DNA of 64,000 bases, taken from contig NC_073388.1 in assembly GCF_028641065.1 (NCBI RefSeq), positions 36,518,001-36,582,000 on the forward strand, given 5' to 3'. The position numbers and the translations under genes were made by a program. The notes beneath the pieces were generated by a model. The model was not told where the DNA came from. It searched no databases and saw nothing but the letters and a program-made list of their open reading frames with translations. The stretch comes from Leucoraja erinacea (lineage: Eukaryota). Position 1 is the first letter of the stretch, and every line of letters starts with the position of its first letter. Shown here piece after piece: positions 3,611-47,649 of the stretch.

Positions 3611-3870
3611 CCATTACATGTTCACACCAGTATAATCAAAGGATTGTATTTTGAGATTACAGGTGACGCAAATTGTTTGGATAGTTAGTGGAAGTTAAAG
3701 GAACGTGGCAGTATCATACATCATTTATGATATTTTGCACTAAAACAAGCAATTATTTCATTTCTCTCATTATTCTTAAATTCCTATTTTTAAATCATCT
3801 TCCCCCAGAATAATTTCACATACATGGTAAATGGTAACTTTTCAGACAGTGTGCAGCAGGATTGAACAAG

Positions 3871-3955
3871 GGTTTCGGCCCGAAACGTTACCCATTTACT
3901 TCGCTCCATAGATGCTGCTGCACCAGCTGAATTTCGCCAGCATTTTTGTGTACCT
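3871..3955 (+). mobile_element. Short Penelope pLTR-derived insertion with 13-bp TSD
   Basis: Flanked by aggattgaacaag at 3858-3870 and 3956-3968. Begins inside the hammerhead stem II (ggtttcggcccgaaacgtt). Confidence 0.75.
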
Positions 3956-4489
3956 AGGATTGAACAAGTGTTGGTGTCAAGGTGACAATATATTATTGTG
4001 TCATACAACTTAGAAAAAGATCCTTCAGCCCACCATATCTATACTGACATACGTTAGAAAAACACAGCAAGTCGGGCAGTATCTGTGGAAAGAGAAACAG
4101 TAAGTCTAGGTTAGAAAGAAGGTAGAGGAATGGATGGAATAAAGGAAATGTTGCTGATGGTATAGGAAGATGTAAAGAAGAACTTAATTATACATTATAA
4201 CGATAGAACACAAGCCTGCAGCAGTGGTAGAAACATAGAAAATGAATTATTACAAAAAGAAATGGGATGGATGTTGGATGAAAATAAACTACAGGGATAA
4301 AGTAGAAGAAAAAGACTGGATTACTGCATGGAGACTTGACATGAATCAGCTCAACTGGTTGGTGGGTACCTCAGCTGGAATGACTCAAAGATGAAGCCTT
4401 ATTGGGGGTTGTGAAATTCAGCTGGTCACTCCATTTTTGTGCAAGGTCAAATATATTTTTCACCTTTAACCTATCTATATCTTTTTCAG

Positions 4490-4640
4490 CGTATAATCAC
4501 CAGGCAACTGAAACACACTGATGGGTTTAACCTCAACAAGGGAGTAATTGTGAAGGTCCGGACACTTGTAAAAGAACATTGTGATGGATCTGAGCTGAAA
4601 AGTGACTGGATGGAGATGACGTACTGGCCACTCATAGAAG
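4490..4640 (+). CDS. il13ra2: il13ra2-like exon, second half of N-terminal D1 domain (first coding exon visible in the window)
   Basis: ctttttcag|...|gtaaac, 151 bp, phase 0 to 1. Encodes RIITRQLKHTDGFNLNKGVIVKVRTLVKEHCDGSELKSDWMEMTYWPLIE, resembling the IL13RA2 D1 segment IIT..L...DGFDLNKG as I recall it. Confidence 0.9.
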
Positions 4641-4680
4641 GTAAACTTCTCTTATCATGGAAAATCCTGATTCAAAAAGA

Positions 4681-4714
4681 AGTCTGAAGAAGGGTTTTGG
4701 CCCGAAATGTTGCC
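4681..4714 (+). ncRNA. Minimal hammerhead ribozyme motif in a Penelope pLTR fragment (4681-4779)
   Basis: agt-CTGAAGA-A-GGGTTTTGGCCC-GAAA-TGTT-gcc: both core boxes and stem II are present. Confidence 0.6.
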
Positions 4715-5241
4715 TATTTCCTTTGCTCCATAGATGCTGCTGCACCCGCTGAGTTTCTCCAGCTTTTTTGTGTACCTTCAGTACTTAACTAACTGGTTTG
4801 CAAATTGATGATGGTAATTAATTTGCTGGTCATACATTGTAACATATACATGAATAATACAAAATCATAAATTTTCAATCCTTTTCCCCCCCACTTTTAA
4901 TGAGCACAACATCTACACAAGTACCTTAACTACATAACTGGGTGGCAGTAAAGTGGCTGTTAATTGTACTAATCCAGGCGTGAATTCATTGGCAAGGTGT
5001 GATTACTGCTAACCAGGCTTCGCTGCCTGGGTTTCAGTGCTCACACACAATGGGTAGTTATGTAGGTGCTGGACAGTACTCACACTTATTCACTCGCCTT
5101 CTCATTACACGCTCACTCAATCACTTGCTTGTTCACTCACCTGCTCAGTCAGTCACTCACTCACTCTTGCGTTTGCTGCTCCTGCTTCTGGCTACATTCA
5201 GGTTTCCAGCTCTGGTGTTGCTGGCTGCACGTGGAGTCAAA

Positions 5242-5716
5242 AGGGCCTTGGGTGTCATTTGCGCATCAGGCAGGTGGCGCGCAAAGATTTTGTGAATCCC
5301 CAAATCCTGGGACGCCACGCGTGACCGGGCGTCAATGCCTAGGCCACCACATCCCGCCACGTGCCATGAGCACGCAAGGCACGGCATGCGTACATCACGT
5401 GCGCATCACAATGCACGTGACACGTAAATGTTGCGTCGTGCGTCATGACGCGTAAATGATGTTGCGTAAATGACACCCAAATAACATCCAAGTGGGACAG
5501 GCCCTTAAAGAGTGTGTCCCACTTGGGCGTCATTTGCAAATCACGCAAGTGGTGCGCGAGGATTTTGAGAATCCCAAAGTCCTGGGGTGCCGTGCGCTAC
5601 CGCCGTCACTGCCTATGCCACCACGTTTCGCCATGCGCGCGTAATGCATGCGCGTCGTGATGCGTAATGGTCGCGTAAATGAGGCAAAAATATCGCCCAC
5701 GTGGGACAGGCCCTTA
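5242..5716. mobile_element. Tandem dimer of Harbinger-type MITEs
   Basis: Two related units, each ending gtgggacaggccct-taa (about 5504 and 5714), joined at a TAA. The left TIR of the first unit is partly deleted. Confidence 0.7.
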
Positions 5717-8734: not shown

Positions 8735-9912
8735 AAACTAAAAAAAAATGAAACGTAAAATGAAAACCTCTAAATAATATACTTTGCTTTTGCCATCACT
8801 CTGATATGTTAATCTTCGTCTCATCTGTTCACAAGACCTTTTTCCAGAACTATGGTTGTTCTTTTAAGTACTTTTTGGCAAACTGTAACCTGTCCATCCT
8901 ATTTTTCCGGCTAACCAGCAGTTTGCATCTTGCAGTGTAGCCTCTGTATTGCTGTTCATTAAGTCTTCTGCGTATAGTGGCCATTGACTCCTGAAGAGTG
9001 TTTCTGATCTGTTGGACACGTGTTTGGGTTTTCTTTATTATGGAGAGATTTCTTCTATCATCAGCTGTGGTGGTCTTCCTTGGCCTGCCAGTCCCTTTGC
9101 GATTAGTAAGCTCACCAGTGCTCTCTTAATGATGTTCCAAACAGTTGATTTTGATAATGGGCCTGTCCCACTTGCCGATTTCTTAGGCAACTGCCAGCGA
9201 CTGGCATAGTCGTAGCAGATCGCCGAAAAACCGGCGACAACTTACGTCATCCTGGCATAAACCTAAGGCAGCACCTACATCAGGAGAAGCTCATTGGTGT
9301 CAAATCCACTGTCGCTGAAATGTTTTCAACATGTTGAAAATTTAGTGGCACCCAGAAAGACGTTACGACTTTTTGCACGAATTAGGAGACTACTCCCGGC
9401 GACCACCGGCAAATATGTGGTGACAAACTAGTTGTCTGTAGTTGCCTAAAAATATTGCTTGTAGGACAGGCCCATAAGCCTGGCTGATGTCTCTAACAGT
9501 TTTATTCTTGTTTCTCAGTCTCATAATGGTTTCTTTGACTTTAATTGGCACAACGTTGGTTCTCATGTTAATAGTAGCAATATAAGTTTCCAAAGGTGAT
9601 GGAAAGACTGGAGGAAAAACTAGGCACTGAGAGCTCTCTTATACCTGCATTAAGGTGGCAATTAAACACACATGAACAATTACAAGCACCAATGAAGCCA
9701 TGTGTCGCAAACATTATGGTGTCCTGAAATGGCGGACTATGTATAAACGCAGCTGTAATTTCCACACCAAATATATAAAAATGGCCTTTATTAAATTCTG
9801 ACTGTGCACTTTAACCACATGTGTTTTTTTCTATTACAAATCTTAAAATGTGGAGTACAGAGGCAAATAAATAAATGATGGGCCTTTGTCACAAACATTA
9901 TGGAGGGCACTC
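8735..9912 (-). mobile_element. Tc1/mariner DNA transposon with a disrupted, truncated transposase
   Basis: Minus strand: ...IMRLRNKNKTVRDISQ...STVWNII...GRPRKTT...RLQFAKKY...TDETKIN. TIR-like end (aacattatggagggcact) near 9894-9911. Confidence 0.85.
9158..9474. mobile_element. Harbinger-type MITE nested in Tc1
   Basis: TIRs tgggcctgtccc / ggacaggccca, with a 3-bp TAA TSD at 9155-9157 and 9475-9477. Confidence 0.85.
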
Positions 9913-10106
9913 TAACTGTCAGAAAACTTTGGTAGTTCATTGCTGGAATCCATGAGGAATCTAAATGTTGAAACACAGTCGTCATTAAGCACGTCTCGGG
10001 TAGTTGGAGACATCCATGTTGTTTGCAAGTGTATGTGCAGAGTTCTGAATTTCCTGACAATTATGGAGACCAGTGCTGGTTGTTCCCAGCAGAACTGTTG
10101 CAATTT

Positions 10107-10325
10107 AGACACAACAAGCTGGGGTAACTCAGCGGGACAGGCAGCATCTCTGTAGAGAAGGAATGGGTGATGTTTCGGGTCGAGACCCTTCTTCAGACCT
10201 TCAGGTTCAGATCCGAAACGTCACCCATTCCTTCTCTCTAGAGATGCTGCCTGTCCCGCTGAGTTACTCCAGCTTTTTGTGTCTATCTTCGGTTTAAACC
10301 AGCATCTGCAGTTCCTTCTTACACA
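10107..10325. mobile_element. Inverted-repeat (hairpin) element built from two Penelope pLTR arms
   Basis: 10108-10180 is the reverse complement of about 10211-10284. Confidence 0.8.
10166..10199 (-). ncRNA. Minimal hammerhead ribozyme motif
   Basis: Minus strand GGU-CUGAAGA-A-GGGUC UC GACCC-GAAA-CAUC-ACC: core boxes, perfect stem II and a 3-bp helix I. Confidence 0.65.
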
Positions 10326-10335
10326 CTGTTGCTAT

Positions 10336-11222
10336 TTAGTTTAGTTTAGAGGTACGGCATGGAAACAGACCCTTCAGCCCACTGGCTCTGCACCGACCAG
10401 TAATCTCTGCACATACCAGGGACAATTTATACACATACCAAGCCAATTAACCTAATCTACTAACTCAAACGTCTTTGGAGTGTAGGAGGAAACCATAGGT
10501 AGAAACATAGAAAATAGGTGCAGGAGGAGGCTATTTGGCCCTTCGAGCCAGCACAGACATTCATTGTGATCATGGCTGATCGTCCCCAATCAATAATCCG
10601 TGCCTACCTTCTCCCCATATCCCTTCACTCCACTAGCCCCTAGAGCTCTATCTAACTTTCTCTTAAACCCATCCAGTGATTTGGCCCCCACTGCCCTCTA
10701 TGGCAGGAAATGCCACAAATTCACAACTCCCTGGGTGAAAAAGTTTTTTCTCACCTCAGTCTTAAATGGCCTCCCCTTTATTCTAAGATTGTGGCCCCTG
10801 GTGCTGGACTCCCCCAACATTGGGAACATTTTTCCTGCATTTAGCTTGTCCAGTCCTTTTATAATTTGATACGTTTCTATAAGATACCCCCTCATCCTTC
10901 TAAACTCCAGTGAATACAAGCCTAGTCTTTTCAAGCGTTCCTCATATGACAGTCCCGCCATCCCAGGGAAAAATCTCGTGAACCTACGCTGCACTACCTC
11001 AATCACAAGGATGTCCATCCTCCAATTAGGAGACCAAAACTGTACCCAATACTCCAGATGTGGTCTTACCAGAGCCCTATACAACTGGAGAAAACCCACA
11101 CGGTCACAGGAAGAATGCACAAACTCCATATAGACAGCACCCGTAACCAGATGGAACCCGGGTGTCTAGCCCTGCAAGCAGTGTAAGGCAGCAACTCTAC
11201 TGCTGCAGCAATGTGCTGCCCT
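10336..11222 (-). mobile_element. HE1-like V-SINE interrupted by a CR1 (10500-11087, minus strand)
   Basis: V-core (rc of gtctttggagtgtaggaggaaacc) is split by a CR1 3' fragment (ORF 10698-11129) with an (agaaacat)n tail. Confidence 0.85.
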
Positions 11223-11485: not shown

Positions 11486-12412
11486 GTATGTATGACAATG
11501 TTGATAGCATAACATAATAGCACATTTACATAATGTCGCACAAGTTGTCAAAGGCAACAATGCATAATTATTCCCATTATTAAATTACAATGTGAATTAC
11601 TATCCTTGCTGTTGACACATTAAGCAATCAATTGCCACGCATCGAAGGTAGACAAAAGTGCTGGAGAAACTCAGCGGGTGCAGCAGCATCTATGGAGCAA
11701 AGGAAATAGGCAACGTTTTGGGCCGAAACCTTTCTCAGATCTGTTGCTCCAACTATCTATTAAAGAGTTGGGAATTATAGGAACGTGTAAATCAGCTAAA
11801 GACTTCAGATAATGAGCTGGTGTTTTTAACAACCCACTATTACAGTACACAGAAGTCCACGATCAAAGTTTACAGTAGTTATTATACATCATTTAGTCTA
11901 ATACCCTACTCATAATGTTTCATTTATTTAAATGTTATCCTTTAAAATGCAGAGATGCTGCTTTGAAGAAGTGTGCCTATCTTTAAAAGGGGTATTACAA
12001 TATGGCACCACACAAAATATGACGGGGATAGGAGCTTTCTTCCTGCCTTACTTTTCTTTGTCAGGTATCATCCACGATAGTACACTATCATATATATTTT
12101 ATACCGAAGTCCACATTTGTCGTGCACAGTATTTTTTGTTTTAGTGGATGTTCTATTTGCCATTTAAAAAACGTTGCAGGGATACTACACTATTAATTTT
12201 CTGGTAAAATTGCTGATCAAAAATACGTCACCAAATGAAAATGTGGAAGCAGTCCACTATTCTATTAATCAGAATGTAAGTTACCACTTGAAACTTAAGT
12301 TGCCACGTGAAAAGTTTGATTTTTAGAAAATAAGGATGTTAATGAGTAGGATGCTGTTAAATATTATGTCTTGTATTTGATTGACCTGAACTGTCTTAAA
12401 AGTAATGAGCTT

Positions 12413-20374: not shown

Positions 20375-22539
20375 TTGTCTGATGTTCCAGCTGCCTCTCT
20401 ACTGGAAGGATGAGATTGTGCTGCAACGATTATCCAGGATGTTGGATTAGACGACTTAGCTGGAGTCAAACCTGATGAGCTAGAGCCTGGCTAGATAATT
20501 AGACTAGTTGCCAAGATAGTTGGAATGTCATACTATGTGAGATTGGGTAGACGGGGATGTGTATTTTTTTAATTCTTTAAAAGTATGAGATGAGATAACT
20601 TCTAATAAGTTATAAAATTCTAAAATGTTATAACTTATGGCCTTCATACGCCAGTTGCAATGTAAATGGTGATTGATTGCTTGCAGAACCCAGAGGAGAA
20701 ACTACCATCCTCCGATAAAAATCGTCGTACTCTTTCAAATCTGTAAGTCAAGCAACATTTTTAGTTCTAATAATATTCTCTTTACAATGCTAAGAGCTAT
20801 GTTCTGCACTCTATATCTTTCCCTTTGCTCTACCAATTTTACTCGAGTTTAGCTCAATTGTATTTAATTATCTAATTTGATAGCATGTAAAACAATTTTT
20901 CACTGTACAATAATAAACCTAATCTAAACCTCAATGTTTCCTCTAACTTGGGAATTTGTGTACCGTGGTCAGAGATAAGATGTTTAAAATTGAGATAAGA
21001 AATTCTTACAATCAAGAGGGAGCGAAACTTTTGAATTCTCTATCTCGAACCAGCAGTCGAAGCTCAGATTTTAAAAAAAGGTAATGTACTGGGGCAAATC
21101 AACGTATCAGGCAGCATCTCTGGGAGACCATGAACAGGTGATGTTTTGGGTCAAGACCCTTCGTCAGACTGCTGCCTGACCTGCTGAGGTACTGCAGCCC
21201 TTTTGCCTTTTTATAAACCAGCATCTGCTGTTCATTGTTTCTACTGTGGAAACTCAGTTGTTATCTAAATTCAAAATAGAGAATTATAGATTTCTGGGCA
21301 TAAAGGGTATTTAGGGATATGAAGACAAAGCAGGAATTTGGCACTGAGCTGGAAGTTCATCCATGATCTTGAAAAATGACACAAAAAAGGTCAGAGGCTA
21401 CAGTATATAGCTTCCCCATTCCTATTTCTTGTCATAGAGTTAAACAGCATGGAAGCAGGCCCTTTGTGATAATACTTCTTTCAACTACATCCTCTGGCAG
21501 CTCATTCCATATACCTACCACCCTATATGTAAAAATGTTGACCCTCGGGTTCCTATTAATTTATTTCCCCCTTACCTTAAATCTTTGCCCTCTGGTTCTC
21601 GATTCCCCTACGCTTGATAAAAGACTCATTTACCCTACATATTCCTCTCAGAATCTTATACACCTTTATAAGATTACACCTCACCTGCCTGTGCTCCAAG
21701 GAATAAAGGCACCGATGAAGCAACTTGGAAAGTTGTTGCTTTTGTTATTACTCTGGCAAATTGGCAACATTTTGTTTTAGTAAGTATTGAGCAAGGCGTG
21801 TGTGCAGTTCTGACCACTGCATAACAGGAAGAGCATGACCGCATTTGAAATAAATCACAGGACATTTTTGTGGCATTTTCCAGGACTGGAGCATTTCTGC
21901 TAATATTGAGCGGTCTGAAATTATTTCCTTTGGAATAGAAGAGCCTAGGAGATTAGTTAATTTGTATTGTGTTACATTTTGTGTGACCAGATGGTTCTTA
22001 AATTCATAAGACATAGCAGCAGAGCGTATTCTGCCATTCAATCATGACTAACCTATCTTTCCCTATCAACCCCATTCTCCTGCCATTTCTGTGATCTTTT
22101 CACCACTAAAGCAAGGAAACAATCTGGTTCCATTGAGAGGAACTCAATAACCAATATGCATTTTCTACCAAAGTAATTTATCAAAAGATTGGAGGAGGAT
22201 TAAGAAAAATGTCCTTGTAACCTAAATGATGGGAATCCAGAACCCACCACCTGAAAGGCTGGTGAAGTAGAAACCATTTAAAATACAGTATATTGTAGTG
22301 TACACTAGATATACTGCAATATAGACGGCTATAACCAAGAGCTGGAAGGGAGTTTTTATGGCTGGGGAACTCTTTCTCAGCTGGCATAGACATACTGGTT
22401 TAATCCCCTCTGCTTAATGATTCTATGAATATATAAACTAGAAAATGGTAGGCCATGTGAAGATCTGTGGGATAGATTCAACTACCAAAAATGATGAGCT
22501 ATCCCAATAATCTTTGGAAAGTAGCCTAAATAGCTACAT

Positions 22540-28650: not shown

Positions 28651-28987
28651 TGGGCCTGTTCCACTTACTCGACTTTTTAAGCGACTGCCGGCACCCTTCA
28701 TAGGTCATCGCAGGTTGCCGAAAATTTTCAACGTTGAAAATCCAGCGGCGACCAGCACAAGGTACGACTCTTTGGGTGACTACTCATGACCATATAGGGT
28801 TCACTCCGCGACATGTCACCAGGGTGTTGCCTGCACGGCCGTGACTAGTCTCCTCAGTCGCCCAAAGAGTCATAGCGTCTTTCTGGTCACCACTGGATTT
28901 TCAACGTTGAAAATTTTCGGCGACCTGCAACGTCCTATGACGGGTGCCGGCAGTCGCTTAAAAAGCCGAGTAAGTGGGACAGGCCCA
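28651..28987. mobile_element. Harbinger-type MITE with long inverted arms
   Basis: tgggcctgttccactta...taagtgggacaggccca, flanked by taa and tta. Confidence 0.85.
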
Positions 28988-30343: not shown

Positions 30344-31561
30344 CAGGGCTGGATGTGCGTATAAGCTAGACAATCTTAAGCTTAGGGCCTGGAGATCTAA
30401 GGGGGCCTACTCGCCTTGCTGCTTCACTGGACCCGTCTGACCTCACCGCCACACCGACCATCCGCCCAACGGGACCTCCTACTCTTTGCCTGCTGACCCT
30501 GGCCACTCCACCGCCCTCCAGCAACCTGCAGGCGTCGCCTTACCTACAGCCTGGACTCAGCACCGGGCCTGATGTTTCCATGCAGCAGACTCCCACTCCC
30601 CCGGGTTTGACTGCGCTGGGTCCTAGTGCTAGTCCCCCAACCCTGGTAATCTCAGTGGCTGTTCCACTGGGTCTTCCCCATTCCCCTCAAACCATGTGAC
30701 TCCAGCTCTTCCCCACCCACACTACAGTCCTCATACCCCTCTACCCCCTGACCACCCACCACCCCTTCACCAGACATCATCTTGGCCTCAGTCCACTCAC
30801 CTGCCTTCCTCCGGCCCAACCCCCATCCCTGCCGTGTGTTCACCATCCCCAACTGACCTCCCCCTGTCAGATACCAAACGGTTTGTCCTCAGCAGTGGTC
30901 TCACCTTGGTCCCCCTCCGTCCCCACCTCAATGAGTTCCACGCCCACTGCGATATGGAGCTCTTCTTCCGTCGCCTCTGTTCTTCCATGGGAAGGAGTCC
31001 TTGCCCCCATTGATGATCCCTTTTCCCGTCTCCAACAGACCCCATCCTCTTGGACTCCCCCTCATGGCCATTGGTACAATAACATTTGGGGGTCACCATC
31101 CGCCGTCGGAACGGGAGAACATTCTCAGCGGTTTGGACTTCCGAATCGGCCACTTCCTACCGGAGACCGCGGCTCCCGAAGTCCACAGGCTGCGCTGGGT
31201 GGAGATTCACGCTGGCGGCCCTTGGCAAAGGGTTCCCAGGGCTCCGCGATATTAAAATCAGCGCAGCCAGAGGCTGGGAGCTCCGCAAACCACAGCTCCA
31301 TGATGTTGAAGCAGCAAGCCCAACACTCCAGAGCTTCAAACGGCGATCCAGGTAAAGCATTGCTCGCTCCACGGTGAATCCAATATGTATTTTAAAACCA
31401 ACTGTTTAATGACAACATACAGTAGGATCTAAAAGTGTCACACTGTCACTGTCGGGTAGTCATTGTCCTCCAGTCCTTGGGGGTGGAGGATTGGGGGGAT
31501 GGGGGGGGGGGCCTCACAAGTGAAATAGCTTAGGGCCTCTCTTCATCTAAATCCGGCCCTG
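30344..31561. mobile_element. Non-autonomous hAT element containing a Penelope ORF fragment
   Basis: TIRs cagggctggat / atccggccctg, with a perfect 8-bp TSD gttcttat (30336-30343, 31562-31569). Internal + strand DLPLSDTKRFVLSSGLTLVPLRPHLNEF...DMELFFRRL. Confidence 0.85.
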
Positions 31562-33156
31562 GTTCTTATCTGTTTTTTGAGGTTTTTTCAGATGCCATTT
31601 TGAGAGATTTGAACCCAATGAGATGCATATGATTAAATGTATCATAAAGAGGCAATCGCACTTGGACGTCCCATGTAACTATTGTTTGAAAGTCACCTTG
31701 GATACTTCCAGCTATTGTCTGGTTTAGTGGCCAAAAGCCCTGATGACGATGAATGATTGTTCTACAGAAGGTTGATTTTACAATACTATTAGATGGTGTA
31801 TTGTTGGTTGAAAATTCACATACCCCTTTATGATTGATAGCTGCATTCCACCCCTGCACAGTGCAGATTAAAGCTGATACAACTGGATACATTTCTAGCT
31901 ATGTACCATAACATATGATCACTCCCTCATTATAACAGTAATGTGGGAACTGCAAAAGACTTAATGGAAGAGTTCACACTTTCTTGAATATTGATTTAAT
32001 TCATTAGGAGTTTCCAATCAGGTAATTTGTGTTGCTGACTTGAAAGTAGTTTAAAGTAAACTTCAAAATGTCGAGTTTTTTCCCCCTCGAAAATACATGG
32101 TATAATTAACTAATTTCAATTACTGTCAATGTTAATAGTTTATCAGGTGCTTTCATTTTCTCGTTAATTCCTCACATTATTCTCTTTTCAACGCCATGCA
32201 GCTGTACAGCATGGAAACAGGTCCTTGGGCACAACTCATTCTTAACAGACCTAAAAGGCAATTTACTAATGATGTGGGTGGTGGTTATATGAAACAAACT
32301 GCCAGATGGAATTATAGAGGTGCACACAATGGCGCAGTTTAAAAGACATTTAGATAGCTACGTGGACTGGAAATGTTCAGAGGGAAATGTTATAAAGTCA
32401 GGCATATGCAACTGGCTCAGTTATAAAACATGCTCAGCAAGGATGAGTTGTGCCCTCATTACCTTTGCTTCCATTACCTTCTCCTCAGTAAATAGGTGAG
32501 AAGTATTAATTTAACGCCCAGTCAACCTCCTGTGGTTTAACAGACTGACGACATTGTGGCCTATTCTCTCTCGTTACACTGTGGCTCTTAATATATCTCT
32601 ATTTAGAATGGAAGTTCTTAGAATTTTCCTTTATCTTGCCTGCCAGAAACATCTCTTCCCCTTAATGTGCCTTTAGTTCCTCACAAAGACTAATATACTG
32701 AAAGTTAGTTTTAGACGTTTGCATGGATTAACCATTATCTAAAAGGAACCGATAAATTGAATCACTGGATCAGAGAATAGTTACAGCATGGACGGAGGCC
32801 ATTAATCCATCTAATCCATACTAACCCTGTGCAAAGGTCATCCAGCTAATCCTGCACATTTAGCTGTATAAATATATTAAAGGAAACTAGTTTGCAGAGT
32901 TATGAAGAGAGGGTAATAGACTGGGATTAGCGGGATTACCTTTGCACAAAAACCAGCATGCGTTAGATGAGTTAAATGGTCTTCTTCCATGCTGTATCCT
33001 TTCGATGATCATATGATTCAATTTATGGGTCATTTTAGAAGCTGGCATGGACTAATTGTTATCCAGTCAGTTCAGCGAAAGAGAGGGCATGTCAAAAAGA
33101 AGAGATGAAAACTTGTACCATTTGCACGGGCCGACTACATGGGCCCAGTATCCCTC

Positions 33157-33190
33157 AGTCTGAAGAAGGGTCCGGACCGGAAATGTCACC
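33157..33190 (+). ncRNA. Degenerate minimal hammerhead motif in a Penelope pLTR fragment
   Basis: agt-CTGAAGA-A-GGGTCCGGACCG-GAAA-TGTC-acc, with a mismatch at the base of stem II. Confidence 0.5.
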
Positions 33191-34534
33191 AATTTTTCTC
33201 CAGCGATGCTGCCTGACTCGCTGAGTTACTCCAGCAATTTGTGTCTATCTTTGATATAATCCAGGATCTGCAGTTCCTTATTTCTACCATCCCTTGGCTT
33301 TTGTTCCCCTGATCATAAACATAAGTATATCAAATAGTCAATTTCCAAAATGTTTGCCACTAATTTCATCTGATCCATTGGCATTATGTTTATTTTATTC
33401 CAACTGAGGTTTGGCACAGATAATTCAACGAATCTCCGTCAGTTAAACAACAAATGCCTTAGTTCAGTTCCAAGAAATTTAAATTTGAGAAACACGCAGT
33501 TCTCGGAAAAACTCTTAGCATGGCAGCTCTCCAATTATAATTGCTAAAATTTCAATTAAAAAGACATGGTTCATTAAGTCAAGTAACAAGAAAAAAAATA
33601 CTACCATTGCATTGAACAGCAGTGGTTTGTACATCAATGCATTAAAGTTCTTAAAAGTAAACACACATATACTGGAACAATTTAAAAGTACCAAATCTAT
33701 GCAAATTACCCATCTACATAAATCAATTATGCCATTAGGTTTATGAAATTTATGAAATGATATAATTGACTAATAATTTACAACACCCACAAATGCATAC
33801 ATTTAGATATATAGCTAAATTTTATATTTCCCCAGTTTCTCGTGTTTGAACACATTTTGACCAATAATTTAGGCTTAACATCGTTATGGTATTCACTGCA
33901 GGTACTGAGAATTCCCATTGATCACTCCAAATAGGTTTCATACACAACTAATCTCTCATCCTGTACAATACTTACCTCAACACAACATAAAAGAACACAA
34001 GGTGCTGGAGTAGCTCATCAGGTCGGGCAGCATCTCTGGCGAACATGAATATGGGACGTTTTAGGTCGAGACCCTTCTTCAGACCTGAATAAAGTCCTGG
34101 CCTGTCCAGCCTCTCCCTATAGCTCAGGCTCTCGAGTCCTTGCAAAATAATGTCCCAACTCCTACATTCAGTTTCTAGACTGATGAAGGCCAATTTGCCA
34201 AAAATATTTTTCACCACCCTACCTACACATGATGCCATATTCAGGGAACTATGTACTGTAACACTCTACAGCACTCCCCAGTGCTCCACCGTCCACCGTG
34301 AAGGTTCTGGATGTCACGGATGTTACTGTGACTGGAGGGCTTCAGTTGTAGGGAGAGGCTGGATAGGTTGGGACTGTTTTCCTTAGACTATAAGACCAGA
34401 GGGGGAGGGAGAGGAGGCCTTAGGTAAATATATAGCTCCACGTCTCTATGATTCTATGAGTTCAAAGTAAGTTCATCAATGAGTCATGTCCTCTGTTCCA
34501 ACACCAGCAACAATACAGACAAAGTTGTGCTTCT

Positions 34535-35320: not shown

Positions 35321-35408
35321 CCACCTCCTCCTACCACTGCTCCACAATCAGTAAGAGGAAGGGTGCAGACTCGAAATGTCACCTATCATAAAGATATTAT
35401 AAAGATAT

Positions 35409-35440
35409 GTGACATTTCGGTTGAGACCTTTCTTCAGACT
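35409..35440 (-). ncRNA. Minimal hammerhead motif in a Penelope-derived repeat
   Basis: Minus strand AGU-CUGAAGA-A-AGGUCUCAACC-GAAA-UGUC-AC. Confidence 0.5.
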
Positions 35441-36684
35441 GTCACATCCCCATGTTCTCCAGAGATGCTGCCTGACCTGTTGTTTTACTTCAGGACTTTG
35501 TGTCCTTTTGTGTATCAACCAGCATCTGCAGTTCCTTGTTTCTACAATTTTACATATTGTCTGGTACTTTCCAGTGTTACTTCTGCAGTGTTTGGCTCCA
35601 TTATAGCTAGGATTTATGTGGTCCCAAATCACTTCTGGTTTCAGCCATTTGTTGACATCATATGGAATTCAATTCAATTGGCATGGTGTTGGTTTCTGTG
35701 ACGTTGAGGATGTACGGAGGAAGCTGGGCTAGATCATCCAGTCACTTCTGGTTGAACATGGTTGTTAATGCCTCAAACTTCCCTCTTGTCATTGCTGAGG
35801 ATGGAATGCTGCTCCCATTAACTGTTTAATTGTCTATCACCAGATAGTCACAGATTCATATGGCACAGAAAGAGCCTCTCTGGCCCAACTTATCTACACT
35901 GACCAAGATGCATCATCTAAACTAGTCCCATTTGCCCTTGTTTGGGGCATATGCCGCCAAACCTTTCCTATATATGTACCTGCCTCAATGTTTTTTAAAA
36001 GTAGCTAATGTCTCTGCCTTAACTAATTCCTCAGGCAGCTCACTCCATATCAATCTGTGTGGAAAAGTCACCCCTCAGATTCCTATTCAATCTTTTCCCT
36101 CCCACCTTCAACCTAAGCCCTCTAATTCTTAATTCAACACCCTTGGGGGAAAAAGGCTCGGCATTCACCCTATCTGTTCTTCTCATTACTTTATACACAT
36201 CTATAGGAAATGCTGCAGAAAGGATTTCCCTTTAAGAAACCATCAGAGCTATTGTAAGAACTCACTTGTTGCTATGGCTGCTTTTGACCTTTGCAACCTT
36301 TGTACTCCGCCATTTCTGGTACATCAGTTCCAGGAAAGCTAAATAGTGCAAGCCACATAGACCTTGGACTCAAGATATACATTCCTTTCATTACCAGTTA
36401 ATCGTCACATTCTGCACATAGTCATTGTTAGAAAATATTATGCTAAGGTAAAAGATAAAAAGATATAGTGATTAATTGATTGCAAAACATTGACTATGTA
36501 GAAAAATAACATATTTGGCCACAAAGTAAAGCAAAGGCATTGGTTTATGCTGCCGACAAATTCCTTGGACCATCTAACACTGACCTGACGTCAGTTGCAT
36601 TTGATGTGGATGATTCACTTGATTTAATGGCCATAACATTGAAATAGATTAAATGCTCAAGTTTGTTAGAAATAATTGGAACCA

Positions 36685-37926
36685 TAACCCTTTATTTAAA
36701 CCATCTCTTATTGAAAAAACATATAACCAATGGGAAAGTTTTGGAATTAAAAGGATCGGGGATATGTATGAAATGGGAAACCTACTATCATTCCAACAAT
36801 TACAATTAAAATTTAAATTGAAAAACAACCAATATTTTAAATATTTTCAGATTTGCGATTTCATGAAAAAATTCATACAAGGATATCAAGAAATAACTCC
36901 TGACTTATTGGAAGAAGCAATGAATATTAAAGCTGACTCACAAAAAATAATATCATATTTATATAATAGTATTTTAAATATAGACCTACCATCGACAGAG
37001 GTACTTAGAGAAGAGTGGGAACGGGAATTAATGATTAAAAACTATGAAGGTTACATGGGAAAAGTACTTCATATGTATTCACAAATGTTCGATTAATGTA
37101 AGACATAATCTAATTCAATTTAAAATTTTACATAGATTATATTATTCAAAAATAAGTTTGAACAAATTCTATCCAAATATATCCCCCATTTGTGATAAAT
37201 GTTTATCCCAAAATGCAACTATAACACACTCTTTTATTTCCTGCATAAAACTTTATAGATTTTGGAGTGATATTTTTGAAATATTTACAAAATTATTTAA
37301 GATAAGAATGGAACTTAATACTGAAATCATTATATTTGGAGTAATGGAAGATGGGAATAAATTGAACTCATCTCAAAATTTATTTTTTAATGATGGTTTA
37401 ATAATAACAAAAAAATGAATACTTAAATTTTGGAAAAATACATCAATACCAATGCTTAAAATGCGGATCACAAACATGTTGGACACCGCACATCTTGAGG
37501 AAATGCGATTCCTCCTAATAGATAAATCAGACCAATTCATAACGAGTTGGTCTCCATTTGTTGTCTTTTTGGAATCATATGGTGCAACACAATTGTAAAA
37601 GCTAACGGTTTCAGGACTGGACGAGGGATGGTCAAGAATATAAACAATGGTCTCCTTACTTCTTTTCTTTATGTCTTATTCTCTTTTTCCTATTTTCTTT
37701 TTTTCAACTTTCTTCATTCACTCTTCTTTTTTCTTCTTCTTCACACACTATATATCTCACGTCTTTCTATCCTTCACTATCTAATTTTTTTTTCTTATTC
37801 TTATTTTTCTTTATTATAACAAAAAAAAAGAAGCTGTGCATAAAATGTATTATGAAAATATATATTAGGCACTTTGGTGCCATATGATTGTACTACTTCT
37901 AATAAAATAAAATATGATTTAAAAAA
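36685..37926 (+). mobile_element. 5'-truncated L1 LINE with poly(A) and 17-bp TSD
   Basis: ORF2 C-terminus (QFKILHRLYY...CDKC...THSFISC..L..FW), then AATAAA and an A tail. TSD agaaataattggaacca at 36668-36684 and 37927-37943. Confidence 0.92.
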
Positions 37927-38636
37927 AGAAATAATTGGAACCAACATCATCCCAGTCAATTGAAGCAATTTAATTCATTCTAATTACTCTTAATTAATTA
38001 CATATACCTTGAATTGTTAATGAGGCAAATGTTCTGGCACTGAAAATTAATTGTGTAAAGCTCCATACCTTATTGAAGGTTATTAAAATGTCATTTTTGG
38101 GCATTTTTTCACCAGTAATTTCACTAACTGGGGCCTTTTGTGGGTGTAATAAAGTAAACACAATAGTTCCCATTGAACTTGACTTTCATATTAAATGATA
38201 AGCATTTCCATTTCTATAGTAATCAATGTTCAGGATTAACATGTTTAAGAAGGAACTACAGATGCTGGAAAATCGAAGGTAGACAAAAATGCTGGAGAAA
38301 CTCATCGGGTGCGACGTGTCTATGGACCATTTTTGTCTACCTTCAGGATTAACTTCCTCAGTATTTAATTGTCTATATTTGTTCACTAACAGTCTTTAAT
38401 GCCGTAATTTAGAAATTGTCATCCTTGCTTTTAAATGACATCGCTGGCCTTTCTCCCTCCATCCAACCTCACCACACTCAATAATCCCTATAGTCAATCA
38501 ATTGTGGACTGTTGCACATTTCTAGATTAAATTCCTCCACCACTGCTATATTAACAATTGCCTGGACCCTAAACTCTTAATCTTTTTTGCCTAAGTCTCT
38601 CCACATGTTTCTCCCTCAAAGTGCTCTTCAGAATAT

Positions 38637-42185: not shown

Positions 42186-43094
42186 TACACTTTTCCTTGG
42201 AGTTAAGGAGGTTGAGATGTGACATGATAGAGGTAAATAAAACCAGGTGAGGCATAGATAAGGTACACGGTGTCTGTATCCCTTAAAAAAAAACTAGAGG
42301 GCACAGGTTTAAGTTGAAAGGGAGAAAGTTTAGAGGGCACATATTTTTATTTCTGATTCTTAAATTTGGTGACACAAAGAACTGCAGATGCTGGGACCTT
42401 GCAGAGTAAAATACAGTTTCCCCCCCCCCCCCCCCCCCCCCCCTCCCCCCCCCCTCCCACATAACAAGATTAGATCTCAAAAATAAAACGTTTTTAGACA
42501 CAAAAATGGGTGAAAAGACGGATTCCAGGCAGAGCAGCCAAGCACAATGGCGCCCCACCCCTGCACATCCGCTATTTTTTTCTGTTTATTTATTGTGTAT
42601 ATATATATATGGTCTATGGTATATAAACACACTGAACTTTTATCTCCTGTTCTGTATTATGTTTATATATTCTGTTGTGCTGCAGCAAGCAAGAATTTCA
42701 TTGTCCTATCTGGGACACAGGACAATAAAACTCTCTTGACCCTTGACTTGGACTTAAGCAAAAAAGGGTTCTTGGGGGAAAAAAGAGCTACCTTAAATTG
42801 TTGCGTCTGGTTGGGTAACTATGGTAGGGTGAAGACTATTCCATGCTTTAATTGTGCGGGGGAACTCCATGGAGCAGCCAGCAACTCTGGATAGAAAAGA
42901 TTGAGTGACGTTTCGGGTAGAGACCCTTCTTTAGACTCCCTCTGGTTTTAGTATTTTTAGTTTAATTTAAAGATACAGCGTGGAAACAGACCCTTCGGCC
43001 CACCGAGTCCACGCCGACCACCGATCACCCGTACACTAGTTCTATCCCACACATTAGCGGAGTAAATCAAGAGTCAAGAGTGTTTTACTCTCTC

Positions 43095-43850
43095 ACTCTA
43101 CCCTTTTTTCCGTTCCCACATCAAACCAAAATCTTAGAACAATGATGCTGAGAAGACATTTGATAGCGTAGAATTGGGAATACTTATTCAATACTCTTGA
43201 AAAATTTAAGATTGGTCCAAAATTTATCTCTTGGATCAAGCTGATATATCATATACCTCAGGCTTCTGTACTTACCAATAATCAGAGATCCCTTTTTTTC
43301 AGGCTCTTTTGAGGTACTAGACAGGGCTGTCCTTTAAGTCCTTTACTGTTTGATATCACTTTGGAACCTTTGGCCACCGTTATTAGGGAATCCCCTAATA
43401 TATTTGGTATTGTCCGTGAGAATAAGACACATAAGCTATCTCTCTATGCAGATGATCTGTTATTATTTATCTCTAACCCAGAGAAATCTATTCCGGCAAT
43501 AGTAGCACTACTTAATTAATTTAGTAGTTTTTCTGGTTATAAACTAAATCTTAGTAAGAGCGTGTTTTTTCCATTTAACAATTTAATTTTGAATTATGGA
43601 CAGTTTTCATTTAGATTGATTACCGACTGTTTGACTTCTTTAGGCATTAAGTTTACCAAGAAACAAAAGGATCTATTTATAGCCAATTTTACGCCCCTAA
43701 TTGATCATGTCAGACAACAGTTCACTAAATGGTCACCAATGTCCTCATCTCTAATTGGTCGAATCAATGCTATTAAAATGTTATCCTACCTAAATTTTTG
43801 TATTTATTTCAGACAATACCAATTTTTATTGTTAAATCTTTCAAACGGTA
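43095..43850 (+). mobile_element. L1 RT fragment
   Basis: GTRQGCPLSPLLF, KLSLYADDLL and GRINAIKM motifs. Confidence 0.88.
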
Positions 43851-44459
43851 AGTTCTCGTTTAATCTTTATATTTTCACTTGGTAAAATTAGCTGGGAATA
43901 ACAGATGGAATTTAAATGAGGGATTTATGCACTCTGGGAAGAATTATGAGAGGAGGACACACAGTGAAAGGTGGAACCCTTCAAACCGAAAGACTGCAGT
44001 GACATGTCCAAAGATCCTTGTAGGTGGCAGCACAGGTGGATGAGGTGGTGAAGAAGGTGCAAGGGATACTTGCCTTTGTTATCTAGGGCATGGCATATAA
44101 GAGCAGGGATGTCATGGTATTGCTTTATAAAACATTAGTTATACAATTCTGGTCGGCTGCGTCTGTGAACAGAGTCAATGTTTCAGGTTGTGAATCCTTT
44201 GTTAGAACAGATGCTTATTAAGCTGCAAGATGGTTAAAACCGAGGGATGATGTCTTTGATAAGGCAAAAAGGGTGTGGCCATCAAATGACAATTTTTATC
44301 CCATTTTTCTGTTTTGCACCCATCATTTATTCATTGTTATATTTCTCATTACTGTATGTGCATTGTTCACTCTGTGAGCAGGTTATGTACATTGTTTCAT
44401 GTGAGTAAGGTAATTCACTGCACCCTGGTGCCTATGACAATAAACTAAGCAAGGAAAAA

Positions 44460-45000
44460 AGAACTCTCGGCCCATCTTGCCATGCCAATTTTGGCATATT
44501 GGACGTCCTATTTGCCTGCATTTGATCCATATCCCTCTAACACCCTTCTTTTCCATGCATCTGTACAAATGTCATTTAAAACCTGTAATTGTATCATCTT
44601 TTCTCGCTTCCTTTGCATCTCATTCCAGATATAGACTACCCTCTAAGTGAAAAAGTTGCCCCTGAGGCCGCTTTTAAATATCCTCACCTTAAATGTATGA
44701 CCACTATTTTTAGAATTCTCGACCCTGGGAAAACGACTGTGAGTGTTTTTTTTTATCCATGCCCTTCATGATCTTGTACACCTCGATAAGGTCATCCCTT
44801 AACTTCCTGTGCAAAAAAAATGAGTTTGCACATATCTAACCTCTCCCTATAAGCCAACAGGTCCAGGTAACATCCTGGTGAATCGCTTTTACACCCTTTC
44901 CAACTTAATAACCTTCTTTTTGGAGCTGGGCGACCAGACCTACACACAATAGTCCAAGGGTGCTCTCATCAATGACTTGTACAGCAGAATCATGATGTCA
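44460..45000 (-). mobile_element. CR1 fragment
   Basis: Decayed CR1 C-terminus and 3' UTR on the minus strand. Confidence 0.7.
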
Positions 45001-45719
45001 TAACATTAGTGCTAAATCCTGATATCCCAACTTTTGTAATCTGAATCTGAATAGGAATAAGCGGTAAAGAAAGTATTTTTGGCCAGTGACTGAATGTAAG
45101 GACTTAGAGGTTGGGAACACAGACAAAAGAACATGGATAAAAGAAATGTGGATGTTGCAAACTGCAGAATAGGAGGACATGGCCAGCAGGACCAACCTCG
45201 TCCCACTTCCAACTAACCATCTATCTTCTCATGACACTTTTCCTTGTAACTGCAGGTGATGTAACACTTGACTCTTCACGTCTTCACTTCCCAAATTCCA
45301 AGGATTCAAAGTCTTTCCAAACAAAGCAGCGATTCACTTGCACTTCTTGCAGTCTAGTTCATAATGAGTCTCCTTTACATTAGAGAAACCACAGATTGAG
45401 TAATCATTTCTCAGAACACCTTTTTCAAGGAGGAGAGGATGTGGCCTGCCTTGCACTTACAATATTTCATAGGATTTGGCAGTGCTACTTCCAATGAAGT
45501 CACCAGCAACAATATTGTTCAAGTTCTGGGATGTGATTTATCCCTTCTCGAATACATCCATCTTTACATTATTTATTCTTTTCATTATGGGTTTGGAAGT
45601 TTTTACTGTGCAAAATTAATCGTTTATTCTAATTGTTTCAGTTGTTTGCGAAAGTTTCAAAGAAAGCCAAATACAAGCATGAGGTTTTGTTTTGTCTTAT
45701 CTGTACTTTAGGTTGGTTA

Positions 45720-46862
45720 TCTATATAATTAAAAGTCTCATCTTGACCACTTCCTGCGCTGTATATTGATTTTAGAAAAAACGCTACCATATATCGCTAC
45801 GATTTTTGGCCATATTACTCACAAGTCCTCCTCCGCTGAGCAGGCCCCGAGGATTTTTCCCATCCATTAAAAATAAAAAAGTTATGAGTGTTTAAAAAAC
45901 CTTGAGATCCTCTCGCCTGTCAATCACCGCAATGATGCTAAGTCCCCTTCCGGGGGAGGAGGTGGGGGGTGGCAGGACTATAAAACCCCGGATGCCTGGA
46001 TGTGACTCAGTCACCCTGTAAGATCGCGAGGGAGAGCACAACTCTCATTCTAAGCTGTGAATCAACTGATCTGTGAGCCTGCAATGTACTTGCAATAAAT
46101 TATTTGTTAGCCCTTAATGACAATGCCATGAGTTGTTTGACCTGCTGCCCTGCATGTGCTTGAAACTACAATGCTTTATTAGGTCCGACTGTGTTTGGTT
46201 CAAAGGTCCCGCTCATTTTGTGACTTCTGCTTACTGGACAGGTCGCGTTGATTGCGTATTTTCAGTGAGTGCAGAGGTCACGCTGATTGCGTAATTTGCG
46301 GTAAGTGCAGAGGTCATGATGATTGCAGAACTGCCGCTGACTGCAGAAGCCCCAAAGTGGAGAGGCCGCACTCAGCCGTGTGAGTATTCAAGAAGGTTTA
46401 CTGCCATATANNNNNNNNNNNNNNNNNNNNNNNNNNNNNNNNNNNNNNNNNNNNNNNNNNNNNNNNNNNNNNNNNNNNNNNNNNNNNNNNNNNNNNNNNN
46501 NNNNNNNNNNNNNNNNNNNNNNNNNNNNNNNNNNNNNNNNNNNNNNNNNNNNNNNNNNNNNNNNNNNNNNNNNNNNNNNNNNNNNNNNNNNNNNNNNNNN
46601 NNNNNNNNNNNNNNNNNNNNNNNNNNNNNNNNNNNNNNNNNNNNNNNNNNNNNNNNTGCCAGCCCAAGAATCCATTCGGCCCACAATGTCCTTACTAGCC
46701 CTCTGGAAACCAGTCCCTTCAGCCCACAACACCAAGCTAGCGCTCCAGAAAGCTCCTCTCCACTGGCCAGCAATATTGTAATTGGTGGAGAGATGGAATA
46801 TTGCATTGGGGGACCTGCCCTCCCGTGTGAAGCTGGGACCCAACGTGTCCCACTTAGTCTAG
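45720..46862 (+). mobile_element. Non-autonomous Helitron with both termini (contains assembly gap 46411-46656)
   Basis: A|TC 5' end, subterminal hairpin tgggacccaacgtgtccca (46834-46852), CTAG|T 3' end, and no TSD. Confidence 0.85.
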
Positions 46863-47649
46863 TTTTATTATTATTTCTTTCTTTTGGAATTGATTTTGGA
46901 TAGAGATCTAGATTCTAAGCTAGTCATATGGAATACAGATCAGAAAGAAATTGGCGGTAGACAAAAATGCTGGAGAAACGGGTGAGGCAGTATCTATGGA
47001 ACGAAGGAAATAGGCAGTGTTTCGGCACAAAACTTTGCCTATTTCCTTCGCTCCATAGATGCTGAGTTTCTCCAGCTTTTTTGTCTACCTTCGATTTTCC
47101 AGCATCTGCAGTTCCTTCTTAAAGAAAGAAATTGGCATTTGGTGAAATTGATAATTAGGGTAAACTTAAATTGGGAATTTGAATTTGGTACCCTGGAAAA
47201 ACTGAACATTTGCAAAACAATCTAAAAGTGACCTTTGCGAACAAGAATGTTTTCTTTGTCCGGAAGATTGAAAAATGTTGCTCAACATTTTCTGACATGC
47301 TGATTTTAATTTTTAGTGTGCCTTTGAAAAATAATTTTGATGTAATCAGACCTTGCCAGCAACCAGTCATAATTGCACTGGAGGACAGCACAAGTGGAAT
47401 TATTTATGCCAAAACAAAAAGTAGGGACGCTGCAGGGCAAACAACTACATAATGTAGGAAACAGTAAGGATTGTAGCCAAACTCCTAATTAAAATGAAAT
47501 TAAGATATCACTTTAAAAATGCTTGTTGATGGATCTTCTAGGGTGCTTGATGGAGTCAGGTAAACAAGATGTGGGATTTACACAGAAATTACTAAAATGC
47601 ACCACTGGCAGAGACAGCTTTGAAACTGCCAACAAAAATGAGTGCTCAG

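What the first reader, a model, noticed from the sequence alone, without database searches (positions are those of the whole stretch)
3862..47120. Family of Penelope-derived hairpin elements carrying minimal hammerhead ribozymes on both strands
Seen: the motif (A/G)GT-CTGAAGA-A-GGGTCTCGACCC-GAAA-CGTC-ACC or decayed variants recurs at 4681 (+), 10166 (-), 11709 (-), 21137 (-), 33157 (+), 34053 (-), 35409 (-) and 42905 (-), with partial copies at 3871 and 47017. It often lies near the apex of short inverted-repeat elements (best example 10107-10325), and some insertions have their own TSDs (3858/3956; ttcaggattaac near 38229/38342). Established: Penelope-like elements carry minimal type I hammerheads in their pLTRs, where helix III is reduced to a palindrome (ACGU) and cleavage needs dimerisation. 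An extra A after A9 is a known natural variant. Inference: these short non-coding units may be a very high-copy retrozyme-like family in this lineage, with two stem II subtypes (GGGTCTCGACCC and GGGTTTCGGCCC).
Basis: partly seen in the sequence, partly recalled or inferred. Interest (0 to 1): 0.7.

Follow-up and report, generated by a model that had tools for sequence, protein, structure and literature searches.

The report
Penelope end-copies carrying minimal hammerheads
These very abundant 95-135-letter repeats are the end pieces of a known kind of jumping gene (a Penelope-like element) that carries a known miniature self-cutting RNA motif; the hairpins are likely one-off insertion products rather than a separate self-copying family, but their ends, and rare multi-unit arrays elsewhere in the genome, likely record the element's enzyme copying the same short piece of RNA again and again.

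Summary
The motif is real at all ten cited sites, far above chance. It is the minimal hammerhead in the pseudo-LTR of Neptune-type Penelope elements. Intact RT + GIY-YIG copies exist in this genome, and a truncated one lies in the window (972-2820). Sampling gives about 900,000 arms, about half in head-to-head pairs; 81,848 keep both core boxes. No window copy passes a strict descriptor.

The hairpins are not a retrozyme family. Their seams differ between loci, arms are colinear with autonomous elements, 18 of 22 young hairpins have a TSD, and 20 of 21 pair the two 3' ends (+95, +132). 51 of 79 young arms start at the hammerhead's front edge and none at the cut site, so they were likely copied from uncut RNA. 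Helix I is only 2 bp; cleavage is untested.

This scan reported the same reading many times on other DNA. Not seen in the notes I read: insertions holding up to 15 near-identical 180-290-nt units with several different seams (TSD-bounded in some), likely from repeated reverse-transcriptase jumps back to +190..+312. These could seed retrozyme-like arrays.

The parts
972..2820 (-). 5'-truncated Neptune-type Penelope copy: RT end (about 2820-2420), unrelated insertion (about 2420-1610), GIY-YIG end (about 1610-1190), decayed hammerhead unit (1103-1014) and tail (to about 972)
3858..3968 (+). solo unit 3871-3955 (starts in stem II, no tail) with 13-nt TSD at 3858-3870 and 3956-3968
4682..4782 (+). 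solo unit, young type; both core boxes intact, C15.2 changed to U; no tail
10094..10339 (.). head-to-head hairpin 10107-10325: minus arm with both core boxes (G16.2 changed to A), no tail; plus arm starting inside stem II, with tail; 15-nt TSD (1 mismatch) at 10094-10108 and 10325-10339
11641..11741 (-). solo unit, decayed core, no tail
21082..21238 (.). older head-to-head hairpin; minus arm has G12 changed to A; plus arm starts near +46 and has the tail
30600..31000 (+). fragment of the 5' part of a Penelope ORF (approximate limits)
33153..33285 (+). solo unit with tail; both boxes intact, first stem II pair broken
33995..34085 (-). solo unit, G12 changed to A; a separate insertion from 33153 (different subfamily cluster, tail-to-tail)
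35346..35539 (.). decayed compound: plus fragment 35346-35386, minus arm 35441-35405 with both boxes, plus arm 35454-35539 with tail
38229..38353 (.). small hairpin without hammerhead: minus arm 38326-38241 with tail, short plus arm to 38344 without tail; TSD at 38229-38240 and 38342-38353
42859..42938 (-). unit with G5 changed to A, carried inside a larger composite repeat also seen in L081 and L082
46942..47136 (.). head-to-head hairpin joined inside stem II, neither arm has CUGAAGA; minus arm without tail, plus arm with tail; 14-nt TSD at 46942-46955 and 47123-47136
48522..48598 (+). older solo unit with stem II deleted; just outside the cited range

Best explanation
The repeats are the hammerhead-bearing pseudo-LTR ends of several subfamilies of an autonomous Neptune-type Penelope-like element, and the short solo and hairpin copies are likely dead by-products of its reverse transcription rather than a family that spreads on its own. 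Numbering: 0 is the G two bases before the CUGAAGA box; the predicted cut is between +29 and +30. Shown: copies end at +95 or +132; most young ones begin at -4..+12; hairpins have one end of each kind inside one TSD; rare insertions run from a 5' stop back to +191..+312, up to 13 times. Inferred: the element's endonuclease makes a staggered cut of 11-18 nt; reverse transcription starts inside the RNA at +95 or +132; it usually runs off about 95-135 nt later at what is likely the 5' end of an uncut transcript; when both nicks are primed, one at each start site, the two cDNAs are joined head to head; now and then the enzyme re-primes further down the same bound RNA and makes arrays. The hammerhead is likely kept by selection only in source elements, would need a dimer and probably the element's protein to cut, and is predicted to be buried in the duplex when a hairpin is transcribed.
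For: Autonomous copies: 775-aa open frame with RT (Pfam RVT_1, E 9e-7) and GIY-YIG (E 0.007), both below the curated cut-offs; hammerhead about 117 nt after the stop; ATG about 165 nt after it in full-length copies. Direct and inverted pseudo-LTRs with TSDs in long-ORF loci. All main stem II types are joined to the endonuclease end. Endonuclease-end candidates 54,448 against 1,869 for the N-terminal part; 19,839 young units against 132 matches that run past the tail. Unbiased 600 kb: 247 arms, 0 in the reversed control; close pairs 47 head-to-head against 3 tail-to-tail; 118 of 246 arms in 59 hairpins; 47 tight seams take 39 different positions and 1 pair looks alike. Young hairpins: 20 of 21 classifiable pair a +95 end with a +132 end (expected share 0.49, p 6e-6), 18 of 22 have a TSD, control 3 of 200. 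5' ends: 51 of 79 at -4..+12, 0 of 79 at +29..+32. Jumps in 31 of 36 loci that run past the tail; in L271 the two arms hold different sets of seams, so one arm is not a copy of the other. The Anolis element starts reverse transcription at two internal sites that define the tail, extends both strands, and does not need hammerhead cleavage in vitro (PMC11167929, main text). The hairpin folds at -140.8 kcal/mol with the GAAA box paired. Core G12, a CpG site, is mutated in 31% of copies, like other CpGs.
Against: The 5' end of the RNA was not seen: the RNA runs laid (single-cell and polyA reads, contigs) show no pile-up of starts near 0 and cannot show one. A cap-derived extra G is only hinted at (G45, T33, C22 of 100 before position 0; no clear excess before -1; hand counts). 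21 of 79 arms extend further upstream and none of the five full-length direct tandems starts at 0, so longer templates or jumps are needed too. Core non-CpG positions are somewhat more conserved than flank among copies (4.7% against 8.6%, driven by A positions only). 972 loci share one palindromic hairpin seam. Two arrays stop at +31 and +33, just after the predicted cut. Among old hairpins the end pairing is weaker (26 of 42). I did not test formally for letters that separate short from long copies.
Confidence: 0.75

Rival explanations
1. The 95/132-nt unit or the hairpin is an independent non-autonomous family (SINE- or retrozyme-like), transcribed from short copies, processed by its hammerhead and mobilised in trans by Penelope.
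For: Sharp 5' and 3' limits and own TSDs; about 150 short units for each match past the tail; 81,848 intact cores; 972 hairpins share one seam.
Against: Seams differ between loci; arm lengths form a continuum from about 40 to 1,270 nt; each type is colinear with an autonomous element; 0 of 79 arms start at the cut; the shared seam sits at a near-palindrome that favours annealing. Short copies lack the stretch past +132, where the Anolis protein needs RNA (PMC11167929; by analogy).
Confidence: 0.1
2. Same element, but the pile-up of 5' ends near 0 is a roadblock for reverse transcriptase (a protein bound to the pyrimidine tract and AG just upstream, which looks like a 3' splice site, or a fold), not the end of the RNA.
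For: The sequence shows a long pyrimidine tract ending in CAG at position 0; in D. virilis the intron ends at the 5' edge of helix I (PMC4209133). Other stops cluster at -37..-50 in arrays. Cap-G evidence is weak.
Against: No GT..AG joint among the joints shown (35 more were not shown). The sequence at -3..+3 fits an initiator consensus (recalled), and D. virilis Penelope has an internal promoter with an initiator (PMC2377424, passages).
Confidence: 0.25
3. Hairpins arise by fold-back self-priming of one cDNA or of an antisense RNA (as proposed in PMC3846280), and the arrays by later DNA-level tandem duplication or assembly error.
For: Palindromic seams exist; some arrays repeat one identical seam (most jumps in L249 are +210/+33; 3 of 4 in L273); no reads were laid on the arrays.
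Against: Arrays of 95-100% identical units hold 5, 7 and 9 different seams (L249, L272, L271); L271 and L273 sit inside one 18-nt TSD with the normal +95 and +132 ends; the two arms of L271 are not mirror copies. Solo copies use both end sites (39 and 28 of 69).
Confidence: 0.15

Closest known systems
Minimal type I hammerheads of metazoan Penelope pseudo-LTRs (Cervera and De la Pena 2014, PMC4209133; read parts 1-2 of 4: introduction, results, discussion)
   Same: Core boxes, extra base after A9, G10.1-C11.1, palindromic 15.2-16.2, place in the pseudo-LTR, mostly single dispersed copies, opposite-strand pairs nearby.
   Different: Helix I only 2 bp (as in D. virilis, not 4-5 bp); helix II 4 bp; GUU triplet in the youngest family; 81,848 intact cores against about 9,000 in Xenopus (different descriptors, not directly comparable).
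Neptune-clade endonuclease-positive Penelope-like elements (Craig et al., bioRxiv 2021.04.23.441226; passages)
   Same: One ORF with RT then GIY-YIG, CX4CxxC linker, CCHH motif, heavy 5' truncation, partial tandems, inverted 5'-truncated copy, 30-40-nt tail on one end, variable TSD.
   Different: Most insertions are only 95-135 nt with a sharp 5' pile-up; about half of all arms are in short hairpins; multi-unit arrays with mixed seams. No RT tree against reference Neptune sequences was built.
PAc, Poseidon element of Anolis, in vitro (Frangieh et al. 2024, PMC11167929; read parts 1-2 of 4, main text)
   Same: Two internal start sites that define the tail; both strands cut and extended; uncut RNA is the template; no RNA-seq ends at the hammerhead cut.
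   Different: Other clade; here the ORF starts after the tail, not in stem II; iterative jumps were not reported in the text I read.
Animal non-LTR retrozymes (Cervera and De la Pena 2020, PMC7229834, passages; Li et al. 2026, bioRxiv 10.64898/2026.07.22.740005, parts 1-3 of 5)
   Same: Pseudo-LTR-derived non-coding units with type I hammerheads; the rare arrays here (units of 180-290 nt, 6-8 intact cores in L271 and L272) fit the working definition of Li et al.
   Different: The dispersed copies and hairpins are not tandem; the hammerhead is minimal; no circle shown; array seams are mixed and mostly not at the cut site; arrays look made in one insertion rather than by later unequal crossover.
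Repeat-adding reverse transcriptases: telomerase (own knowledge) and DRT2 (PMC12039810, search listing only)
   Same: Repeated copying of one bound template stretch into tandem DNA (inferred here).
   Different: Here it is rare, imprecise and ends as a genomic insertion; no function is implied.

Membership tests
Minimal hammerhead of metazoan Penelope elements | CUGANGA and GAAA boxes with an NUH triplet | tested here: met
   81,848 genome matches, 2 in the reversed control; 29 strict hits in 600 kb, 0 in 5 shuffles. In the window itself 0 strict hits; 5 copies keep both boxes.
Minimal hammerhead of metazoan Penelope elements | Extra base after A9, G10.1-C11.1 pair, palindromic 15.2-16.2 | tested here: met
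   G-C in 185 of 260 arms, C-G at 15.2/16.2 in 156 of 260, most of the rest fitting CpG decay.
Minimal hammerhead of metazoan Penelope elements | Helix I of 4-5 bp as in most metazoan examples | tested here: not met
   2 bp in 21 of 29, never above 3. D. virilis also has 2 bp (PMC4209133), so this does not exclude membership.
Minimal hammerhead of metazoan Penelope elements | Located in the pseudo-LTR of an autonomous element | tested here: met
   About 75-230 nt after the GIY-YIG end in dozens of copies; twice in direct tandems.
Minimal hammerhead of metazoan Penelope elements | Weak self-cleavage as a dimer or with protein | not testable with these tools
   Minimum-energy folds of monomer and dimer do not show the hammerhead fold; this is weak evidence.
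Neptune-clade Penelope-like element | Single ORF with RT followed by GIY-YIG | tested here: met
   (both Pfam hits below curated cut-offs); longest open frame seen 1,193 aa.
Neptune-clade Penelope-like element | CX2-5CxxC linker finger (absent in Penelope/Poseidon) and CCHH motif | tested here: met
Neptune-clade Penelope-like element | Direct or inverted pseudo-LTRs, 30-40-nt tail on one end, variable TSD | tested here: met
   tail about 37 nt; TSD 11-18 nt in 18 of 22 young hairpins.
Neptune-clade Penelope-like element | RT groups with reference Neptune elements in a tree | not tested
   No reference sequences were on hand; Nematis also has a linker finger, so the clade label rests on the motif.
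Animal non-LTR retrozyme | Head-to-tail tandem units of 150-450 bp, each with a hammerhead | tested here: not met
   Not met for the window's copies or the dispersed mass. Met only by rare arrays elsewhere: L271, L272, L273.
Animal non-LTR retrozyme | Unit spreads as itself, with a shared seam or ends set by the cut site | tested here: not met
   39 seam positions among 47 hairpins; 0 of 79 starts at the cut; mixed seams within arrays.
Animal non-LTR retrozyme | Expressed as monomeric linear and circular RNA | tested here: inconclusive
   No joint or end pile-up at the cut among those shown, but the libraries cannot capture such RNAs.

The most novel reading that the evidence does not exclude
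A Penelope reverse transcriptase keeps hold of a short 5' piece of its RNA and copies it repeatedly in one insertion (start at +95 or +132, run to the 5' stop, jump back to +190..+312, up to 13 times, on both strands of the cut). This is a telomerase-like repeat addition that writes tandem arrays of intact hammerheads in a single step. It would give a direct origin for animal non-LTR retrozymes without circles or unequal crossover, and a way to rebuild pseudo-LTRs.
Probability: 0.4. Interest if true: 0.65.

Novelty: new member of a known kind. Interest (0 to 1): 0.35.

Why it matters
As a ribozyme find it is ordinary: minimal hammerheads in Penelope ends have been known since 2014, and this scan has noted this family many times. 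Its value is as a very large natural record of how Penelope elements insert, which is still poorly understood. The ends give testable statements: two start sites used one per strand, uncut RNA as template, a likely transcription start at the hammerhead's front edge, and iterative re-priming. Young intact copies exist, so the mechanism can be tested in vitro. If the arrays come from repeated template reuse, they link the telomerase-related enzyme to repeat addition and explain how retrozyme-like arrays are born.

Tried and rejected
Rfam gathering scan of the window: nothing. Pfam on three window fragments: nothing. PDB sequence search with the ORF: nothing.

Splicing completing helix I: no GT..AG joint among those shown (35 not shown); not supported, not excluded. 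Ends at the cut site: 0 of 79 in DNA, no pile-up in unsuitable RNA libraries. Run search: no RNA holder listed. Cap-derived G: inconclusive. Compensatory covariation in stem II: none.

My early note that all hairpin seams differ was too strong: 972 loci share a palindromic seam. The first core-versus-flank comparison was confounded by subfamilies and alignment edges and was redone; a modest core excess remains. Between cluster consensuses the core is invariant at 10 of 11 positions against 37 of 61 in the flank (p 0.049; 0.066 with 8 clusters). Contigs of three to four other species labels hold the unit with the same depth steps; their kind is not on record, so this is only a hint of wider spread.

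Literature searches for this family in skates or sharks and for Penelope concatemers gave no paper on them by title or abstract; subscription papers and Repbase/Dfam were not searched. No supplements were read: the alignments of PMC4209133 and the tables of Li et al. (one chondrichthyan, mean unit 363 bp) may already hold this motif or these arrays.
Full report
Setting. The window lies in a 2.19-Gb eukaryotic genome, G000. That the host is a cartilaginous fish, skate-like, is recalled from its repeats and taken from earlier notes; I did not test it. Positions in the unit are counted from 0, the G two bases before the CUGAAGA box; the predicted hammerhead cut lies between +29 and +30.

Observation. 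The motif is at all ten cited places. The cited TSDs hold, and hairpins 10107-10325 and 46948-47125 also have TSDs of 15 and 14 nt. Limits: only 3 of the 8 full sites are in hairpins, no window hairpin has a whole hammerhead on both arms, and 0 window copies pass a strict descriptor, although 5 keep both boxes.

Abundance. The exact 33-mer occurs 7,972 times, the young type 16,289 times, and a core-only pattern 81,848 times against 2 in the reversed control. Sixty 10-kb stretches taken at fixed offsets on the 20 largest contigs hold 247 arms, 0 when reversed, covering 3.8% of the bases. Scaled up this is about 900,000 arms, an estimate that assumes the sample is typical.

What it belongs to. 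Window 972-2820 (minus) is a truncated Penelope whose GIY-YIG end runs straight into a decayed unit. Twenty loci chosen for long open frames show intact or nearly intact elements: RT (Pfam RVT_1, E 9e-7) and GIY-YIG (E 0.007), both below curated cut-offs, with a C-x4-C-x2-C linker and a CCHH motif. By the definition in bioRxiv 2021.04.23.441226 (passages) this is Neptune-type, not Poseidon; no tree was built. The hammerhead sits about 117 nt after the stop codon in the youngest family, and in full-length copies the ORF starts about 165 nt after it. All main stem II types are joined to an endonuclease end. Five of the 20 loci have a direct upstream pseudo-LTR and five an inverted one (L121 has both), with arms up to 1,270 nt and TSDs visible by eye. 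Endonuclease-end candidates outnumber N-terminal ones 54,448 to 1,869.

The hammerhead. It matches the minimal form of PMC4209133 (parts 1-2 read): extra A, G10.1-C11.1, palindromic helix III. Helix I is 2 bp in 21 of 29 strict hits, like D. virilis. Stem II differs by U-A against U-G (162 and 71 of 260 arms), a one-sided change, with no compensatory pairs. Across six cluster consensuses the core is invariant at 10 of 11 positions against 37 of 61 in the flank (p 0.049, borderline). Among copies, non-CpG core positions differ at 4.7% against 8.6% in non-polymorphic flank; the gap is in A positions only, and G12 in a CpG is mutated in 31% of copies like other CpGs. I read this as constraint in source elements and neutral decay of copies (inference). 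A transcribed hairpin is predicted to pair the GAAA box in a long duplex. Cleavage could not be tested. The RNA runs show reads over the unit and low depth past the tail, with no end pile-up at the cut and no GT..AG joint among those shown, but these libraries cannot decide the point.

Hairpins. Close neighbours are 47 head-to-head against 3 tail-to-tail; 118 of 246 arms lie in 59 hairpins. Among 47 tight hairpins the seam takes 39 positions and one pair looks alike, so most are made anew at each insertion. One seam, at a near-palindrome at the hammerhead's front, is shared by 972 loci. In 22 young hairpins from loci L131-L240, 20 of 21 classifiable pair a +95 end with a +132 end (one was unclassified; expected share 0.49 from 69 solos; p 6e-6) and 18 of 22 have a TSD of 11-18 nt (control 3 of 200). 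In the older unbiased set the pairing is weaker, 26 of 42. An inverted truncated copy and a tail on one end are described features, and the Anolis enzyme starts at two internal sites and extends both strands (PMC11167929, parts 1-2 read). I infer two cDNAs, one per nick and start site, joined head to head.

5' ends. Of 79 young arms picked by a motif at +51..+85, 51 start at -4..+12, 7 at +13..+50, 0 at +29..+32, and 21 further upstream. A few calls are uncertain by small indels, and two rows share a flank. Genome-wide, 3,830 exact young copies begin at 0 and 2,361 at -1. So the copies are not random truncations and were likely made from uncut RNA. The simplest cause is run-off at the 5' end of a transcript starting at an initiator-like site (consensus recalled; D. 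virilis has an internal promoter, PMC2377424 passages). A roadblock at the splice-site-like pyrimidine tract remains open. An extra G before 0 (45 G, 33 T, 22 C of 100, hand count) is only a hint, and there is no clear excess before -1 (32 G, 26 T, 42 A, hand count).

Arrays. Only 132 matches run past the tail. I examined 36 loci from the first 100 listed matches; 9 were chosen because they had several matches. 31 of 36 show a jump from a 5' stop back to +191..+312 (22 of the 27 not so chosen); 4 run on into the ORF; 1 is neither. Eleven loci have two or more jumps, and L278 and L279 parse poorly. L249 has 14 units with 5 seams, L272 11 with 7, L271 15 with 9, at 95-100% identity to the reference. 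L271 and L273 are head-to-head, end at about +95 and +132, lie inside one 18-nt TSD, and use the same locus-specific stop on both arms (-37, -2); the arms of L271 are not mirror images. No TSD was found for L249 or L272; 16 of the 31 have one of 10 nt or more. Mixed seams argue against a covalent circle and against plain DNA duplication, and for repeated re-priming on one bound RNA (inference). Repeated identical seams, and stops at +31 and +33 in two arrays, keep the rivals alive, and no long reads were checked. L271 and L272 carry 8 and 6 intact cores, which fits the working definition of a non-LTR retrozyme in Li et al. 2026 (parts 1-3 read), who propose later unequal crossover instead. My searches found no paper on such Penelope concatemers; subscription papers and supplements were not seen.

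Earlier notes. The scan reached the same basic verdict many times in this and other genomes, including the 5' pile-up. These are not independent support. They gave me the Neptune label and the palindromic seam, both checked here. The mixed-seam arrays were not in the notes shown.

Verdict. A real, very abundant, known kind of motif in a new member of a known element class; the retrozyme-hairpin family reading is not supported. Interest 0.35, lifted by the mechanistic footprints.

Noticed in passing
L249 (G000:C1:24.09 Mb), L271 (C9:41.12 Mb), L272 (C23:3.11 Mb), L273, L264, L274-L277: Arrays of 3-15 near-identical units from a 5' stop to +191..+312 with mixed seams, several inside one TSD; likely repeated reverse-transcriptase jumps.
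   Followed up: partly
window 29633-30255 and about 54800-55125: A non-coding element with 136-nt terminal inverted repeats carries a decayed piece of the Penelope unit; a second, partial copy lies near 54.9 kb. Looks like a MITE that captured a Penelope hairpin.
   Followed up: no
window 42859-43100 (minus); L081:2700-3160; L082:5800-6170: Composite repeat: LINE-like and SINE-like 3' pieces (labels recalled) fused to a unit with a mutated core, 3 copies in 664 kb, 89-90% alike at the junction.
   Followed up: partly
L100:5015-5200; L049:4115-4300; joints: Short tandem repeats (32-42 nt) of the hammerhead itself; the same kind of joint is frequent in runs of another species label.
   Followed up: no
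L055:7303, L075:7307: Old copies have a CAGAUGA-type box and a GAC after the triplet, suggesting that older families had a longer helix I that was later shortened.
   Followed up: no
L281:1415-1771: A young unit is joined to upstream sequence of a different subfamily, a possible jump between RNAs of two families.
   Followed up: no
L128 (G000:C438): A 175-nt minisatellite of more than 20 units made from the 5' part of the Penelope ORF, with short inverted units inserted.
   Followed up: no
window 1610-2420: An unrelated 800-nt repeat interrupts the truncated Penelope; a similar stretch is in L046.
   Followed up: no
window 9157-9475, 5478-5536, 28640-28998: Other inverted-repeat elements, two with the same terminal motif, unrelated to the hammerhead unit; likely small DNA transposons.
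   Followed up: no
window 10698-11165, 22555-23013, 26074-26592, 36653-37418, 40661-41858, 56418-56798, 57151-58536: Decayed ORF pieces that look like CR1-, L1-, LTR-integrase- and RTE-type retroelements (labels recalled, not searched).
   Followed up: no
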